Below, one piece after another: positions 12,729-20,306 of a stretch of DNA of 28,625 bases (positions are counted from its first letter, which is position 1; each line of letters starts with the position of its first letter). Source of the DNA: an uncultured Dehalococcoidales bacterium. Lineage in GTDB: Bacteria; Chloroflexota; Dehalococcoidia; GIF9; AB-539-J10. Location of the stretch: positions 1 to 28,625 of the forward strand of contig CAYPSP010000001.1 of assembly GCA_964413335.1 (NCBI GenBank), given 5' to 3'. Under the pieces are notes generated by a model. The model saw only the letters and a list, made by a program, of their open reading frames with translations. It was not told the origin of the DNA and did not search any database. Both the position numbers and the translations under genes were made by a program.

Positions 12729-12770
12729 AAAGATAAGTTGCAAGCAGTACTTGAGGTAAAGAATAAAATT

Positions 12771-14849
12771 ATGTCACGAGTTTTCCCTATGGGAAAAGTG
12801 AGGAATATTGGTATTATTGCCCATATTGATGCTGGCAAGACTACTACTACGGAGAGAATCTTGTACCATGCTGGGCGTACCTATAAAATTGGAGGGGTTG
12901 ATGATGGGACGGCAGTTATGGATTGGATGGACCAGGAACGGGAACGTGGCATCACAATAACATCAGCAGCTACTACGTGTGAATGGAACGAGCATCGTAT
13001 CAATATTATAGATACGCCAGGGCATGTGGATTTTACTGCTGAGGTGGAGCGTAGCCTAAGGGTATTGGATGGGGGGGTCGTTGTTTTAGATGCTGTGGCA
13101 GGAGTTGAAGCTCAATCAGAAGCGGTGTGGCGTCAGGCAAACAAGTATAATGTAGCTAGAATATGTTTTATAAATAAGATGGATAGGCTTGGTGCTGACT
13201 TCTATCGTACGATTGAAATGATTGAGAAGCGTTTGAAAGCTATAGTATTGCCGATACAACTTCCTCTTGGTGGTGAAGCTTCTTATAAGGGGGTTATTGA
13301 CCTCATAGAAAACAAAGCTGTTACTTTTCCTGAGGATCCTAAATTGATGCCATTGGAAGATGACATCCCTGAAAGCTATCGGGCTATTGTGGCTGAACAT
13401 CGGGAAGCCCTCATCGAAAAAGTGGCTGAGTATGACGATGATATCATGGCCAAGTATCTTGATGGGCAGGAAATACAAAGTTCACAAATTAAGGCTGCTA
13501 TAAAGAAAATGGTTGTTAAAGATAAGATAGTTCCTGTACTTTGTGGTAGCGCCCTAAAGGGTAAAGGTATTCGACCTTTACTTGATGCCATTGTAGATTA
13601 CCTTCCTTCCCCATTGGATGTACCGTCGATTAAGGCTATTGATATGCGGAGTAAGAAGGAAATCTTTTGTAAAGCAAGTGATGAACAACCGTTTTCGGCA
13701 TTGGCTTATAAAGTTGTTACAGACTCTTTTATGGGCAAGCTTACTTATCTGCGGGTATATTCCGGCAAGATTAAGGGAGGCATGCAAATTCTTAATGCTA
13801 CCCAAGGGGTAAAGGAGCGGTTGGGCAGATTATATGTTATGCATGCTAATCGGCGCGAAGAGGTTAGCATAGCTGATACTGGCAGCATTGTTGCTTCAGT
13901 GGGACTTAGAAAAACCCAGACTGGTGATACTCTCTGTGATAGTTCGCATGCTGTGCTTTTTGAATCGATACGTTTCCCTGAGCCAGTTCTTTCTGTGGCA
14001 ATAGAGCCTAAAAACAAGGCTGATCAGGATAAAATGGGAGATGCTCTTACTAAACTGGTTATGGAAGATCCTACTTTTAAAGCAATCAATAATCCTGAAA
14101 CTAGTCAGGTATTAATCTCGGGGATGGGAGAATTGCATCTTGAGGTACAGGCAGAACGCATATTACGTGAGTTTGGAGTTCAGGTTTCAGTTGGTAAACC
14201 TCGTGTAGCCTACAAGGAGACGATTACTGCTTCTGTGGAAGCTGAAGGGAAGTTTGTCCGTCAGTCAGGCGGCAAAGGTCAATACGGACATGTTTGGATT
14301 AAGTTAGCGCCGGCTGAGAGAGGTAGTGGGTTTAAATTTATCAACGAAATTCGCAGTGGGGCTATACCTAGAGAATATATTCCTGCAGTAGAGGCAGGTG
14401 TCAAAGAAGCCCTGCAAAGCGGGAAATTGGGAGGATATCCCATAGTAGATATTAGCGTCTCTTTATTTGATGGCAGTTATCATGAAGTTGATTCTTCAGA
14501 AATGGCATTTAGGATAGCAGGGTCAATTGGCTTTAAAGCTGGAATGGTCAAGGCAAAGCCTGTTCTGCTGGAACCAATTATGAAGGCGGAAATAATATCA
14601 CCTGAACGATTTTTAGGTGATATCGTTGGAGAGCTTAGTTCCCGCAGGGCACATATATATAGCATGGAAACTAGTGATGAGTCATCTAGTATTCGTTGCT
14701 ATGTTCCTTTAGCCAGGACCTTCGGATTTGTAAGCGTTCTTAGATCGCTTAGTCAGGGTAGGGCAACATACGTTATGGAATTTAGTAAATATGAAGAATT
14801 GCCGCAAGGGTTAACGGAGCAAGTGCTGAATTCATTAGAGGGGGGATAA
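12771..14849 (+). CDS. fusA: Elongation factor G
   Basis: [40 protein letters not shown]; ATG 12771 preferred over track TTG 12738. Confidence 0.98.
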
Positions 14850-15157
14850 TGGCTGGTCAAAAAGTCCGAGTAAAAATTAAGGGATTTGATTATAAACTTG
14901 TGGATCAGTCCATGAGTCAAATAGTAGAAGTAGTGGAACGTACAGGAGCCATAGTTGTAGGTCCTGTACCATTACCTACGACAATAGAGAAATTTTGTGT
15001 TATTCGTGCATCGAATATAGATAAAGATTCCAGGGAGCAGTTTGAAATCAGGACACATAAGCGGCTTATTGATATATTACAACCAACAAATAAAACTATT
15101 GATGCCTTGACTCAGATTAATGTGGCCTCTGGAGTAGAGATAGATATAAAGTTGTAA
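14849..15157 (+). CDS. rpsJ: 30S ribosomal protein S10
   Basis: [24 protein letters not shown]; start overlaps fusA stop. Confidence 0.99.
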
Positions 15158-15164
15158 TGGGAAA

Positions 15165-15803
15165 ATGATTAATTATATTCTCGGAAAAAAAATAGGTATG
15201 ACCCGCATTTTCCTGGATACAGGAGAAGTGGTGGTAGTTAGTGCGATTGAGGTAGGACCTTGCTATGTTACTCAAGTGAAGAAGCAGGTAAAAGATGGGT
15301 ATGATGCTATACAGTTGGGTTATAACAACTTCGGCAAACTTAATTCTCCACAAAAGGGGCATCTAAAGAGAGCCGGTAGTAATACAGAACTAACGGAGAA
15401 TCTTGACTATTTGCGAGAATTTAGAACTCATGATATAGAATCAGTTAAAGATGGAGAGAAGGTGGATTTAGGTTTCTTGGAAAGTGGGGATCGGGTAACA
15501 GTGAGAGGAATATCGAAAGGTAAAGGATTCGCGGGTGTTGTAAAGCGTTATCATTTTAGAGGTGGACCAAAAACGCATGGGCAATCTGACCGCCATCGTG
15601 CACCTGGGTCAATTGGTTCTGGTAGCTCTCCAGGACGAGTGCTAAAAGGGTTACATATGGCTGGGCACATGGGGGATGAAAAATGCACTGTGCGCAACCT
15701 TAAGGTTGTTAAAGTAGATATGGGTCGTAGTTTGCTTCTGGTTAATGGAGCTACTCCCGGAGCAAAGAACTCCATATTAGCTATTGAAAAGGTGAATAAA
15801 TAG
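15165..15803 (+). CDS. rplC: 50S ribosomal protein L3
   Basis: GKKIGMT, SKGKGFAGVVKR, THGQSDRHRAPGSIG. Confidence 0.99.
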   Translation: MINYILGKKIGMTRIFLDTGEVVVVSAIEVGPCYVTQVKKQVKDGYDAIQLGYNNFGKLNSPQKGHLKRAGSNTELTENLDYLREFRTHDIESVKDGEKVDLGFLESGDRVTVRGISKGKGFAGVVKRYHFRGGPKTHGQSDRHRAPGSIGSGSSPGRVLKGLHMAGHMGDEKCTVRNLKVVKVDMGRSLLLVNGATPGAKNSILAIEKVNK

Positions 15804-15806
15804 AGT

Positions 15807-16439
15807 ATGCAAGGTTCTATATATAATATTGCAGGAGAAGTTGTTGGGCAGGCTGAGCTTGATGAAAGTATCTTTAATTTGCCTGCTAACGAGGCTGTGA
15901 TTCATCAGACAATGGTGATGCAGCTGGCTAATAGGCGCCAGGGGACAGCCTCTGCAAAATCCAGGGGTGAAGTTAAAGGGAGTAGACGTAAATTATATGC
16001 GCAGAAACATACTGGAAGAGCTAGAAGAGGGGATGTGAAGTCTCCGCTACTTCGGGGGGGTGGAGTGGCTTTTGGGCCTAAACCGCGTACGTATAGGCAA
16101 TCGATGCCTAAGAAAATGAGGCGGTTGGCACTGAAGTCTATGCTATCTTCTAAAGTAAGGGAAGGGGAAATGAAGATAGTGGAAGGGCTTTATTTTGAAA
16201 AGCCAAGGACAAAGGAATTAAGTAATATCTTGGCGGCACTTAAAATAGATTCTAGTGTACTGATTGTCGTCGAGGAAGCCAGTGTTAATGTGCTGAAGTC
16301 ATCACTCAATTTGGTTAATATCAAAGTGTTGTCTTACGCACAGATTAATGTTTTGGAACTGCTTTCGTACAAAACATTAGTAGTTACTGTTCCTGCATTG
16401 CAAAATATAGAAAAGTTATGGAGAACCAGAAATCTGTGA
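15807..16439 (+). CDS. rplD: 50S ribosomal protein L4
   Basis: RQGTASAKSRGEV, QKHTGRARRG, GGGVAFGPKPR. Confidence 0.99.
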   Translation: MQGSIYNIAGEVVGQAELDESIFNLPANEAVIHQTMVMQLANRRQGTASAKSRGEVKGSRRKLYAQKHTGRARRGDVKSPLLRGGGVAFGPKPRTYRQSMPKKMRRLALKSMLSSKVREGEMKIVEGLYFEKPRTKELSNILAALKIDSSVLIVVEEASVNVLKSSLNLVNIKVLSYAQINVLELLSYKTLVVTVPALQNIEKLWRTRNL

Positions 16440-16441
16440 AG

Positions 16442-16729
16442 ATGCATCCTTATGAAGTATTAAGACGTCCTTTAGTCACGGAAAAGGCTACTATGCTGAA
16501 GGACGAAAAGAATGAATACTTATTTGAAGTGGCCAAGTTTGCAAACAAGCCGCAGATAAAAGAAGCAGTAGAGAAGGCTTTCAAAGTAACTGTGGTTAAA
16601 ATAAATGTGATTACTATCCCCGGGAAGAGAAAGAAGATGGGTGGAAGAATAGTAAAGGCGCCTTCTTGGAAGAAAGCGATAGTTAGATTAGAGCCCAGTG
16701 ATAAAATTACCTTTTTTGAAGGTGTTTAA
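16442..16729 (+). CDS. rplW: 50S ribosomal protein L23
   Basis: LRRPLVTEKA, ANKPQIKEAVE, WKKAIVRL; ATG 16442 preferred (16418 possible). Confidence 0.97.
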   Translation: MHPYEVLRRPLVTEKATMLKDEKNEYLFEVAKFANKPQIKEAVEKAFKVTVVKINVITIPGKRKKMGGRIVKAPSWKKAIVRLEPSDKITFFEGV

Positions 16730-16830
16730 AAGTACTATTGTGAATGAAATAAAGTATGAAGATAAAAAGCCGATGTGGGATAATGTTTCTTATTAACACT
16801 CTTTATATGGCTAAGGAGGAAAGGTAAACT

Positions 16831-16926
16831 TTGGGTTCAGTTGTAAAATGGAGAAAGAATAAGATGTCGAAGCATCATCATAAGAAATTGTTGAAGAAGA
16901 CACGGTGGCAAAGAAATCATCCATAG
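16831..16926 (+). CDS. bS22 / mS38 (AURKAIP1-COX24 domain)-like small basic ribosomal protein, 31 aa
   Basis: Hand translation from TTG: MGSVVKWRKNKMSKHHHKKLLKKTRWQRNHP; SD AAGGAGG at 16813-16819; matches the MGSV.K.R...MSK..H.KLL..TR.QR pattern of bS22 (recalled, not searched). Confidence 0.85.
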   Translation: MGSVVKWRKNKMSKHHHKKLLKKTRWQRNHP

Positions 16927-16950
16927 GTAAAGTGGGGAGAGAAAAAGATA

Positions 16951-17775
16951 ATGTTAAAAACATATAAGCCCACTTCTCCTGGAATGAGAGGGAAAGTAGG
17001 AGCTTCTTTTGACGATTTAACTGGTGTAAAGCCTGAGAAATCTTTATTAGTAAGTTTAAGAAGAAAGGCAGGACGTAATAATCGTGCTGTTATCACGGTA
17101 CGTCATCGTGGAGGTGGGAGTAAGAGGAAACTGCGGATAATTGATTTCAAAAGAAATAAGATTGGGATTCCTGGTAAAGCTGTCTCGGTAGAGTATGACC
17201 CAAATCGTTCAGCTAGGATCGCCTTGATACATTATATTGATGGAGAGAAGCGATATATACTGGCTCCGGTTAAATTGGTTGTAGGGGATATGATACAAGC
17301 TGGTGAGGATGTTGATATAAAACCAGGTAATGCACTTCCGTTGTCCGTAATACCTGCAGGTACATTAATACATAATCTAGAGATGGAACCTGGGAAGGGT
17401 GGACAGATAGTCCATAGTGCGGGTACCGCTGCTCAGATAATAAGCAAAGAAGGAAAATATGTTATAGTGCGTTTACCTTCTACAGAGACACGCAGATTTC
17501 ATGAAAAATGTTGGGCAACTGTTGGACAGATTGGAAACACCGATCATGAGAATTTGAGGCTAGGTAAAGCTGGGGCAAAGAGATGGCTCGGGATACGGCC
17601 GACAGTTAGAGGGTCTGCTATGACACCTCGCGACCATCCGCATGGAGGTGGTGAAGGAAGGTCTCCGATAGGGTTAAAACATCCTAAAACACCGTGGGGG
17701 AAAATAGCATTAGGGCACAAGACGCGTCGTCGTAAGATATCAAATAAAATGATTGTAAGACGAAGGGAAAAATAG
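16951..17775 (+). CDS. rplB: 50S ribosomal protein L2
   Basis: [30 protein letters not shown]. Confidence 0.99.
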
Positions 17776-17777
17776 AA

Positions 17778-18065
17778 ATGTCACGCTCACTAAAAAAAGG
17801 ACCTTTTTGTGATGCCAAGTTAATGAAGAGGATCGAAGCACTCAATGACTCTAAAGAGAAAGATATTATAAAAACATGGTCTCGTGCTTCCACTATTTTC
17901 CCTCAGATGATTGGACATACTATTGCTGTACATAATGGAAGAAAACATTTACCTGTTTTCATTACAGAGAATATGGTTGGGCATAAGTTAGCTGAGTTCG
18001 CTCCAACGCGGACGTTCAGGGGGCATATCACCAAGGCAAAGGTGACTGTACAGGCAAGGAGATAA
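17778..18065 (+). CDS. rpsS: 30S ribosomal protein S19
   Basis: [27 protein letters not shown]. Confidence 0.99.
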
Positions 18066-18068
18066 GAA

Positions 18069-18404
18069 TTGGCAAAATTACGAGTTGTATCAAAAGATAT
18101 TGGCATATCTCCCAGGAAGGTTCGTTTGGCTGTAGATATGGTGAGAGGTAAGAATGTCACCGAGGCTTTAACGATTCTTGGTTTTACACCTACGCCATCA
18201 GCTAAAGCTGTAGCTAAAACAATCAGATCAGCAATGGCCAATGCAGAGAATAATTTTCAATTGTCATCTGGAGATCTCAGGGTTAGTAGTATTTCTGCTG
18301 ATTCAGGGCATACTCTGAAGAGATTCCGTCCGAAGTCGAGAGGACGAATAAGTCCTATTTTAAAGAGGTCAAGTAATATTACTGTTTTCCTTGAGGAGGG
18401 ATAA
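18069..18404 (+). CDS. rplV: 50S ribosomal protein L22
   Basis: ISPRKVRL, SAMANAENN, KRFRPKSRGR; TTG start. Confidence 0.98.
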   Translation: MAKLRVVSKDIGISPRKVRLAVDMVRGKNVTEALTILGFTPTPSAKAVAKTIRSAMANAENNFQLSSGDLRVSSISADSGHTLKRFRPKSRGRISPILKRSSNITVFLEEG

Positions 18405-18406
18405 AT

Positions 18407-19087
18407 TTGGGGCATAAAGTTCATCCTTATGGTTTTAGACTAGGATACATTCGTGGTTGGTCAGCTAAGTGGTACAGTAAGAAGAATTACGTCAATTACT
18501 TATTGAGTGATTTGAAATTACGTAGAATTATCGATAAAAAGTGTGCTGCAGGGCATGTAGCGCGAGTTGAAATAGAGCGGACAGGGAATGAGTTAAGTGT
18601 AACGATATATTCTGCGCATCCTGGTATATTGATTGGTAGAGGTGGACAGAACGTAGAAACGTTGAAAACAGAATTGGAGAATGTTAGTGGCGAGAAGGTC
18701 AGGTTAACTGTCAGGGAAATTGAGCAACCTGAGCTTGAAGCGTGTCTGGTAGCCAGGAACATCGCTGATAGGCTTGTGGCAAGAGTTCCTGTACGACGTG
18801 CAATGAAGCAGGCGTCATTTAGGACCATGCAACTTGGTGCAAAAGGTATGAAAATAAAATGTGGTGGAAGACTTGGAGGTGCAGAAATAGCCAGGTCTCA
18901 GAGCATTCATCAAGGGCAAATGCCATTACATAAATTGCGAGCTGATATTGATTATGGTTTTGCTGAAGCTCGTACATTGATGGGTTGTATTGGGGTAAAG
19001 GTATGGATATATAAAGGTGATATCATTTCTGAAGTAAGGAGAGAAAGTGTTACAACCGAAGAGAGTGAAGTACCGCAAAACACATAG
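18407..19087 (+). CDS. rpsC: 30S ribosomal protein S3
   Basis: [39 protein letters not shown]. Confidence 0.99.
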
Positions 19088-19463
19088 AGGTAGAATGAAA
19101 GGTGCTGCTCATAGGGGTGTGGATATAGCTTTTGGAGAATTTGCCTTAAGAGCTGATGAGACAGCATGGATAACAGCAAGGCAAATTGAAGCAGCACGTA
19201 GAGTGATGGTCAGGTATCTACGACGTGGCGGACGGATGTGGATACGTATATTCCCTGATAAGGTTGTAACTAAAAAACCAGCAGAGACCAGACAAGGTGG
19301 AGGAAAGGGTGCTCCTGATCATTGGGTTGCAGTGGTTAAACGAGGAAAGATTATGTTTGAGCTGGACGGAATAGAGGAAAATATGGCACGTCAGGCTACT
19401 CATCTAGCAGGCTATAAGCTTCCTATTGCTACTAGCTTTATGAGGAAAGAGGATAGAGAGTGA
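19047..19463 (+). CDS. rplP: 50S ribosomal protein L16
   Basis: [30 protein letters not shown]. Confidence 0.99.
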
Positions 19464-19657
19464 AAGTTGAGGAAATGCGGGCTCTTAGCGTTGAAGAGCT
19501 GTTGAAAAAGAAAGAGGAGGCACATGAAGACCTCTTCAAGTTGCGTTTTCGGTTGGCAACAAGACAACTGGTTAATCATCGTGTGTTGCCAAGAGCGAAA
19601 GGTGAGATTGCAAGACTGGAAACAGTAATAAGGGAAAAGGAACTGGGCATAAGATGA
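19460..19657 (+). CDS. rpmC: 50S ribosomal protein L29
   Basis: [22 protein letters not shown]; canonical position. Confidence 0.96.
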
Positions 19658-19941
19658 TTTATATTGGTAAAAGAAAGGTTCTGATAGGGCAGGTATTAAG
19701 CACCAAAATGGTAAAAACCGTGGTAGTTGGGGTAGAGGTTGTGAAACGTCATCGCCTTTATAGGAAAGCTATCAGGCGAATAAAGAGATACAAGGTGGAT
19801 GATGGTGATAGTATTTGTAATGTTGGTGATAAAATCAGAATATTAGAAACAAAACCGATATCAAAAGAAAAGCGATGGCGAGTTTTAGAAATAATATCTA
19901 AGGGTCAGGCAGTCAGAATGGAGCAATTGAAGGGAAAATGA
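19654..19941 (+). CDS. rpsQ: 30S ribosomal protein S17
   Basis: [25 protein letters not shown]. Confidence 0.97.
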
Positions 19942-20306
19942 TTCAATATTATACTAGGCTTAGAGTGGCTGATAATACTGGCGCCAAGCAAGTAATGTGT
20001 ATCAATGTTCTTGGTGGGACGAGAAGAAGGTATGCGCATGTTGGGGATATCATTGTTGTCACGGTAAAACGAGCTGTGCCGCATGGTATAGTGAAAGAGG
20101 GTGAAGTAACCAGGGCTGTTGTGGTACGTGTAGCTAATACTTATAGGCGACCTGATGGTTCATATATTAAATTTGATGAGAATGCTGCAGTGATTCTTGA
20201 TGATAAAAATAATCCTAAAGGGAGCCGCATCTTTGGGCCAGTTGCCAGAGAGCTCCGAGACAAGAAATTTAATAAGATAATATCGTTAGCTCCAGAGGTA
20301 GTATAA
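19938..20306 (+). CDS. rplN: 50S ribosomal protein L14
   Basis: [32 protein letters not shown]. Confidence 0.99.

What the first reader, a model, noticed from the sequence alone, without database searches (positions are those of the whole stretch)
16831..16926. Hidden bS22/mS38-like ribosomal protein gene inserted into the S10 operon between rplW and rplB
Seen: rplW and rplB, normally tightly adjacent, are 221 nt apart. The gap holds AAGGAGG followed by a TTG-initiated 31-aa ORF, MGSVVKWRKNKMSKHHHKKLLKKTRWQRNHP, below the ORF-track cutoff. Knowledge: it follows the pattern of mycobacterial bS22 (recalled as [29 protein letters not shown]...), a lineage-restricted small-subunit protein related to mitochondrial mS38, whose mycobacterial gene lies outside the S10 operon. 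Inference: this lineage has recruited bS22 into the core ribosomal superoperon, implying stoichiometric incorporation. The HHH and two Trp residues are unusual for the family.
Basis: partly seen in the sequence, partly recalled or inferred. Interest (0 to 1): 0.8.

Follow-up and report, generated by a model that had tools for sequence, protein, structure and literature searches.

The report
bS22 ribosomal mini-gene inside S10 operon
The 31-codon frame between the L23 and L2 genes is a real, conserved gene for the already known tiny ribosomal protein bS22 in an uncultured Dehalococcoidia bacterium; only its home inside the S10 ribosomal operon, shared by one group of Dehalococcoidia, is unusual.

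Summary
rplW ends at 16729 and rplB starts at 16951, a 221-nt gap. AAGGAGG (16813-16819) lies 11 nt before a TTG-started 31-codon frame (16831-16926).

The frame is a clear bS22. It scores 58.6 bits on NCBIfam ribo_bS22 (cut-off 34) and 32.9 bits on Pfam COX24_C (cut-off 23). It also matches ribosome-bound bS22 chains of actinobacteria in the PDB. It is the only copy in this 84%-complete MAG, and it evolves under purifying selection (pN/pS 0.14 in frame, 1.6-2.1 out of frame).

The order rplD-rplW-bS22-rplB-rpsS holds in all 30 relatives' loci I fetched from the window's order, and in four further Dehalococcoidia families. A single clade of all carriers is not rejected (p-AU 0.84). Every other bS22 locus I examined lies elsewhere, including:
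- other Chloroflexota;
- Nitrospiraceae, Syntrophia and Acidimicrobiia MAGs;
- 28 of 28 loci sampled from Actinomycetota.

Many Dehalococcoidia, including complete small genomes, gave no match at all.

Public records already call this gene in relatives, at this position, as "AURKAIP1/COX24 domain-containing protein". This scan has also reported the same thing on at least 14 other genomes. I found no paper on the operon placement. It is a correct but modest finding. Stoichiometric incorporation into ribosomes is inferred, not shown.

The parts
16418..16729 (+). rplW (uL23), the upstream neighbour
   Evidence: ORF. Homologous gene calls in relatives carry PF00276 Ribosomal_L23. tblastn synteny.
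16730..16830 (+). 101-nt rplW-bS22 spacer. A spacer of this length is shared by the same-genus genome G001 and by some other genera of the family (G010, G014, G016); most other relatives have 0-30 nt here.
   Evidence: Alignment. No significant RNA structure (z 0.15). No Rfam match at E<=1. No promoter-like or terminator-like site on the + strand.
16813..16819 (+). Shine-Dalgarno AAGGAGG, 11 nt upstream of the TTG start
   Evidence: Read directly. GGAG/GAGG-like motifs sit upstream of the start in most relatives.
16831..16926 (+). bS22 gene: TTG start, 31 codons, TAG stop
   Evidence: family and PDB matches. Single copy in the genome. Conserved in 40 of 41 relatives. pN/pS 0.14. AlphaFold2 predicts helix 3-23, a break at residue 24, and helix 25-29, with mean pLDDT 91.8.
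16934..16939 (+). GGGGAG Shine-Dalgarno-like motif, 11 nt before the rplB start
   Evidence: Read directly.
16951..17775 (+). rplB (uL2), the downstream neighbour
   Evidence: ORF. 196 of 201 class genomes match it. Relatives' gene calls carry PF00181/PF03947.
14849..20306 (+). Surrounding S10/spc ribosomal gene string on the same strand: rpsJ, rplC, rplD, rplW, bS22, rplB, rpsS, rplV, rpsC, rplP, rpmC, rpsQ, rplN
   Evidence: ORF list. Gene names come from Pfam labels on the collinear relatives as far as rplP. The genes after rplP are named from my reading of their translations and their order.

Best explanation
window:16831-16926 (+) encodes an orthologue of small-subunit ribosomal protein bS22, the bacterial counterpart of mitochondrial mS38/Cox24 and of eL41. 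In solved ribosomes this protein is a very basic bent helix lodged among 16S helices h2, h27, h44 and h45 next to the decoding centre, and it reaches towards the 50S subunit.

In this Dehalococcoidia lineage the gene sits inside the S10 operon between rplW and rplB, on the same strand. It has its own strong Shine-Dalgarno and a TTG start. It is therefore most likely transcribed on the S10 mRNA and made together with the core ribosomal proteins.

The placement most likely arose once in an ancestor of a multi-family group of Dehalococcoidia and was kept. Other Chloroflexota keep bS22 as a free-standing gene in varied neighbourhoods or have none.

Shown here: gene reality, family membership, conserved synteny and its taxonomic limits.
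Inferred: co-transcription, ribosome binding in this organism, stoichiometry, and a single origin.
For: Family:
- NF047430 58.6 bits against cut-off 34, and PF08213 32.9 bits against 23.
- phmmer hits to ribosome-bound bS22 chains 8crx_X, 5o5j/5o61 and 6dzi_j, aligned from residue 1 to 29.
- Predicted helix-break-helix with pLDDT 91.8.

Real gene:
- Single copy in the genome.
- 40 of 41 relatives carry it.
- pN/pS 0.14 in frame against 1.6 and 2.1 out of frame.
- 7.5 synonymous against 4.5 non-synonymous differences to the same-genus copy.

Synteny:
- rplD-rplW-bS22-rplB-rpsS in 30 of 30 relatives' loci from the window's order.
- The same order in families f9, f78, f80 and f100 and in named MAGs such as Dehalococcoidia bacterium CSMAG_2455 and Dehalococcoides sp. 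JdFR-54.
- The rplW-rplB gap is 114-231 nt in all 42 carriers and 8-50 nt in most non-carriers.

Operon:
- No promoter-like or terminator-like site on the + strand between rplD and rpsS.
- In some relatives the bS22 start overlaps the rplW stop.

Lineage limits:
- bS22 lies elsewhere in every other locus examined, namely 19 from other Chloroflexota families, 20 further Dehalococcoidia, and Anaerolineae, Nitrospiraceae, Syntrophia and Acidimicrobiia MAGs.
- The same holds for 28 of 28 Actinomycetota loci.

Single origin: the tree with all 42 carriers as one clade is not rejected and is in fact likelier than the free quick tree (p-AU 0.84).
Against:
- The window has a 101-nt spacer before the gene where most relatives have tight coupling, so its translation level relative to the neighbours is unknown.
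- Residue 16 is Lys in M. smegmatis, where it contacts h44 (PMC10081302). It is His here and Gln, Arg or His in most of family f1, so the rRNA contact may differ.
- M. smegmatis bS22 is dispensable (PMC10081302), so operon residence need not mean an essential or stoichiometric role.
- In the free four-protein tree the carriers fall into four groups, and starred branches force at least two changes. Single origin is therefore allowed but not demonstrated.
Confidence: 0.9

Rival explanations
1. The frame is a regulatory leader or upstream ORF whose translation tunes rplB expression, and the peptide itself has no function.
For: It is short, lies directly upstream of rplB and is spaced about 24 nt from the rplB start. 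The rplW-rplB junction tolerates other insertions in related genomes.
Against: The amino-acid sequence, not just the open frame, is conserved. It passes curated family cut-offs, and pN/pS is 0.14. The same protein family occurs as a free-standing gene far from rplB in many lineages and is seen bound in solved ribosomes.
Confidence: 0.02
2. The gene is a true bS22 homologue, but the protein is a conditional or sub-stoichiometric ribosome accessory (as dispensable as in M. smegmatis), and its operon position is a neutral accident of insertion with no effect on dosage.
For: bS22 is non-essential in M. smegmatis (PMC10081302). It was not found in many Dehalococcoidia, including complete genomes, so the ribosome of this class can do without it. 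The spacer and separate Shine-Dalgarno in the window decouple it from rplW.
Against: All 42 S10-operon loci with the enlarged gap hold an intact bS22, across several families with deep divergence (ribosomal proteins 55-75% identical). In some relatives the start overlaps the rplW stop. This argues that the position is selected.
Confidence: 0.15
3. The S10 placement arose several times independently, because the rplW-rplB junction is an insertion hot spot, rather than once.
For: In the free tree the carriers fall into four groups, and starred branches force at least two changes. Family f112 carries a different conserved ORF of about 132 aa at the same junction.
Against: The tree that constrains all carriers to one clade has a higher likelihood, with p-AU 0.84. 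The S10-resident proteins share the ...HRKLLKKTRWQR... type. The insertion point and orientation are the same in every case.
Confidence: 0.2

Closest known systems
Actinobacterial bS22 (M. smegmatis MSMEG_0945, M. tuberculosis, Cutibacterium acnes; PDB 5o5j, 5o61, 8crx, 6dzi and others)
   Same: Same length class (31 against 32-33 aa). Same N-terminal MGSV motif, basic helix and HRKLL/TR.QR core, aligned end to end at E 1.6e-5 to 2e-4. Same NCBIfam equivalog.
   Different: The gene location differs: none of 28 sampled Actinomycetota loci has rplW or rplB within 1.5 kb. Residue 16 is His, not the h44-contacting Lys described in PMC10081302. Trp replaces Lys7 and Val/Ile26. The start codon is TTG.
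bS22 of other Chloroflexota (Anaerolineae and other classes; Dehalococcoidia families f106, f110, f114 and others)
   Same: 55-75% identical. They share H15, H17 and W26, which are typical of the phylum. NCBI names them the same way.
   Different: They are free-standing genes in varied neighbourhoods with no shared neighbour. In the sister families f106, f110 and f114 the gene lies upstream of a glyceraldehyde-3-phosphate dehydrogenase gene. Most of these start with ATG.
bS22 of Bacteroidota (F. johnsoniae Fjoh_1533) and Borrelia (bb0822)
   Same: Same ribosomal pocket and bent-helix shape according to PMC7797042 and PMC10618245. The Borrelia gene also uses a non-ATG start and was missed by annotation.
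   Different: The sequences are too diverged for NF047430 to pass its cut-off (control genomes). I did not examine their gene contexts.
Mitochondrial mS38 (AURKAIP1 / yeast Cox24) and cytosolic eL41
   Same: The Pfam COX24_C domain match covers residues 1-28. The literature places these proteins in the analogous position on the small subunit (PMC10081302, PMC10618245).
   Different: mS38 is a much longer nuclear-encoded protein with the domain at its C-terminus. eL41 is a single unbent helix.

Membership tests
bS22 (NCBIfam NF047430 ribo_bS22, equivalog) | Whole-protein HMM score at or above the curated cut-off (34 bits) | tested here: met
   58.6 bits, E 4.7e-16, model positions 1-30 of 31. 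53.6 bits in the six-frame genome search.
Pfam PF08213 COX24_C (former DUF1713) | Score at or above the gathering threshold (23 bits) | tested here: met
   32.9 bits, E 6e-8, profile positions 1-28 of 33.
bS22 | Sequence homology to chains built into solved bacterial ribosomes | tested here: met
   phmmer hits to 8crx_X, the 5o5j/5o61 group, 9e16_x and 6dzi_j at E 1.6e-5 to 2e-4 over residues 1-29.
bS22 | About 30-33 residues and strongly basic (Lys/Arg-rich) | tested here: met
   31 residues with 8 Lys, 3 Arg and 4 His, and no acidic residue.
bS22 | Bent alpha-helix (helix, kink, short helix) | tested here: inconclusive
   AlphaFold2 on alignment A2 predicts H3-23, a break at residue 24 and H25-29, with pLDDT 91.8, which agrees with the description in PMC10618245. 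Foldseek against the PDB returned nothing for so short a model.
bS22 | Physically bound in the 30S pocket formed by h2, h27, h44 and h45 | not testable with these tools
   This needs ribosome purification with mass spectrometry or cryo-EM from a clade member.
S10 operon member | Same strand, between S10-operon genes, with no intervening promoter or terminator | tested here: met
   The order is conserved in 42 loci.
S10 operon member | Co-transcribed with rplW and rplB | not testable with these tools

The most novel reading that the evidence does not exclude
A single ancient insertion put bS22 into the S10 operon in the ancestor of a multi-order group of uncultured, mostly marine-subsurface Dehalococcoidia. 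This turned an optional accessory protein into a constitutively co-expressed core ribosomal protein, and the gene order rplW-bS22-rplB now marks that group. Within the window's family, the h44-contacting Lys16 was then replaced by Gln, His or Arg, which would change the local geometry of the decoding-site (aminoglycoside) pocket.
Probability: 0.3. Interest if true: 0.45.

Novelty: new member of a known kind. Interest (0 to 1): 0.3.

Why it matters
The S10 operon is among the most stable gene strings in bacteria, so a lineage-restricted accessory ribosomal protein fixed inside it is a neat, easily scored marker. It also hints that bS22 is a regular ribosome component in these uncultured Dehalococcoidia.

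The searches show that bS22 is much more widespread than the structural literature suggests, which covers Actinobacteria, Bacteroidota and Borrelia. It occurred in about a fifth of sampled Chloroflexota, and in Nitrospiraceae and Syntrophia MAGs.

The protein, its fold and its binding site are already known, and public annotation already calls the gene in relatives. The gain is therefore a corrected annotation for this MAG plus a modest evolutionary observation, not new biology.

Tried and rejected
1. Decayed bS22 relic in bS22-less relatives. The 92-nt rplW-rplB gap of a family f17 genome (L183) reads MGSQVKRRVKKRSK in one frame. Its score against a bS22 HMM (6.1 bits) is matched by shuffled gaps (maximum 9.7; the top observed score was reached in 4 of 100 shuffles), so this is not evidence.
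2. Regulatory RNA in the 101-nt spacer 16730-16830. Folding gives z = 0.15 and there is no Rfam match at E<=1.
3. Fold search of the 31-residue model against the PDB returned no rows, which is uninformative at this length.
I used the listing of cluster members and the look-up of encoding contigs instead.
6. A shared neighbour for the non-S10 bS22 genes of Chloroflexota. None was found across 34 loci. Only the sister families f106, f110 and f114 share a context, upstream of a GAPDH gene.
I repeated it with a genome handle.

Full report
**Observation**

rplW occupies 16418-16729 and rplB 16951-17775, both on the + strand, leaving a 221-nt gap. AAGGAGG lies at 16813-16819. Eleven bases later, TTG at 16831 opens a 31-codon frame that ends with TAG at 16924-16926, and its translation is exactly the peptide quoted. 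A GGGGAG motif at 16934-16939 precedes the rplB ATG. On the + strand no promoter-like or terminator-like site falls between rplD and rpsS.

**Family**

- The peptide scores 58.6 bits (E 4.7e-16) on NCBIfam NF047430 ribo_bS22, an equivalog model with cut-off 34.
- It scores 32.9 bits on Pfam PF08213 COX24_C, whose cut-off is 23.
- phmmer against PDB sequences aligns residues 1-29 with bS22 chains built into actinobacterial ribosomes (8crx, the 5o5j/5o61 group, 6dzi and others) at E 1.6e-5 to 2e-4.
- AlphaFold2 on an alignment of 29 Chloroflexota homologues predicts helix 3-23, a break at residue 24 and helix 25-29, with mean pLDDT 91.8. This agrees with the bent helix described for bS22 and mS38 in PMC10618245.
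- A Foldseek search with so short a model returned nothing.

**A real gene**

- The MAG is 1.56 Mb in 307 contigs and 84% complete. It has one match only, this one.
- 40 of 41 genomes of the same genus, family and order carry an intact copy above the cut-off.
- Over 25 S10-resident copies, pooled pN/pS is 0.14 in the annotated frame against 1.6 and 2.1 in the two shifted frames. Against the same-genus copy there are 7.5 synonymous and 4.5 non-synonymous differences.
- TTG is the commonest start (17 of 25), followed by ATG (6) and GTG (2).

**Synteny and its limits**

In all 30 relatives' loci fetched from the window's order, the gene order is rplD-rplW-bS22-rplB-rpsS.

I compared bS22 places with rplB places in 201 sampled genomes of the class. 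The same adjacency appears in four further families (f9, f78, f80, f100). All other bS22-bearing class members have the gene on another contig or hundreds of kilobases away.

Named records with the S10 arrangement include Dehalococcoidia bacterium CSMAG_2455 and CSMAG_2721, Dehalococcoides sp. JdFR-54 and several 'Dehalococcoidales' MAGs. The organism is therefore an uncultured Dehalococcoidia (Chloroflexota).

The rplW-rplB gap is 114-231 nt in all 42 carriers and 8-50 nt in most non-carriers.

In the phylum sample, 63 of 301 genomes have bS22. In the class sample the figure is 61 of 201, and complete small genomes of family f7 gave no match.

Nineteen loci from other families of the phylum have bS22 away from any S10-operon gene. 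Across 34 non-S10 loci no neighbour is shared. The exception is the sister families f106, f110 and f114, where bS22 sits upstream of a GAPDH gene and next to an HGD-D-like gene.

bS22 homologues also turned up in Nitrospiraceae, Syntrophorhabdaceae, Syntrophus and Acidimicrobiia MAGs, none next to rplB.

In a sample of 101 Actinomycetota genomes, 55 have bS22. This tally includes three unpublished genomes, G510, G557 and G597, all with matches; without them it is 52 of 98. None of the 28 published loci examined has rplD, rplW, rplB or rpsS within 1.5 kb. The two loci from unpublished genomes were left out of that context check.

**History**

I built a quick maximum-likelihood tree of concatenated uL4, uL23, uL2 and uS19 (107 rows, 667 columns).

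- It puts the window's order plus f78 in one clade of 37 carriers (SH-aLRT 99).
- It leaves f9, f100 and f80 outside that clade on a weakly supported backbone.
- Constraining all 42 carriers to one clade gave a tree 36 log-likelihood units better than the free quick search, with p-AU 0.84.

A single insertion is therefore compatible with the data but not proven. A possible decayed relic of bS22 in the gap of a bS22-less family did not beat shuffled controls.

**Details of this copy**

In the Chloroflexota alignment W26 and H15 are at least 90% conserved, and H17 is present in most rows. W7 is common in the window's family, in its sister families and in several other lineages.

Position 16 is Lys in most homologues, and in M. 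smegmatis it contacts h44 at the aminoglycoside pocket (PMC10081302). It is Gln in most of family f1, Arg in a few members, and His in this genus.

The 101-nt spacer before the gene is matched in length by the same-genus genome G001 and by some other genera of the family (G010, G014, G016), but not by most relatives; only part of the spacer is held for the third same-genus genome, G003. In some relatives the bS22 start even overlaps the rplW stop. The spacer shows no significant fold and no Rfam match.

**Novelty**

NCBI already names relatives' proteins 'AURKAIP1/COX24 domain-containing protein'. Public gene calls place a 31-aa COX24_C gene between L23 and L2. The window's exact sequence is not in the protein collection, so in this MAG it is probably uncalled.

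No paper in the searchable library links bS22 with Dehalococcoidia, Chloroflexi ribosomes or the S10 operon. The structural papers describe bS22 in Actinobacteria, Bacteroidota and Borrelia.

Earlier agents of this scan reported the same arrangement on at least 14 other genomes with the same verdict. My tests agree with them.

**Verdict**

The gene is a new member of a known family. Its operon placement is a genuine lineage-specific curiosity that appears not to have been discussed in print.

Noticed in passing
L181:1280-1678 (+) and the corresponding 457-nt gap in L180: Two genomes of Dehalococcoidia family f112, which have no bS22, carry a different conserved ORF of about 132 aa between rplW and rplB. 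It has a hydrophobic C-terminus and no Pfam match. The same junction of the S10 operon has therefore accepted another insertion.
   Followed up: partly
L219:1396-3707, also L218, L220, L231-L233: In sister families f106, f110 and f114, bS22 has its own conserved home between an HGD-D-like gene and a glyceraldehyde-3-phosphate dehydrogenase gene.
   Followed up: partly
L138, L146, L148, L149, L154, L156: Clear bS22 homologues occur in Nitrospiraceae, Syntrophorhabdaceae, Syntrophus, 'delta proteobacterium' and Acidimicrobiia MAGs. This is a wider spread than the structural literature describes.
   Followed up: partly
L228:2501-2839: In one Dehalococcoidia genome (G436) the bS22 frame runs on for 112 codons after ...KKTGW instead of stopping near codon 31. 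This is either a fusion or a frameshifted copy.
   Followed up: no
window 12738-15157: fusA (EF-G) ends at 14849, exactly where rpsJ starts. No tuf gene lies between the str and S10 gene strings, and relatives show the same arrangement (L268-L270).
   Followed up: no
window 16730-16830: The 101-nt AT-rich spacer between rplW and bS22 is matched in length by the same-genus genome G001 and by some other genera of the family (G010, G014, G016). Most relatives have 0-30 nt here. No structure or known RNA family was found.
   Followed up: yes
L173 and L062 (172-nt gap), L209 (178-nt gap), L112 (222-nt gap): A few other genomes have enlarged rplW-rplB gaps without a bS22 match: two Chloroflexota, plus a Desulfotomaculaceae MAG. 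I did not work out what these gaps contain.
   Followed up: no
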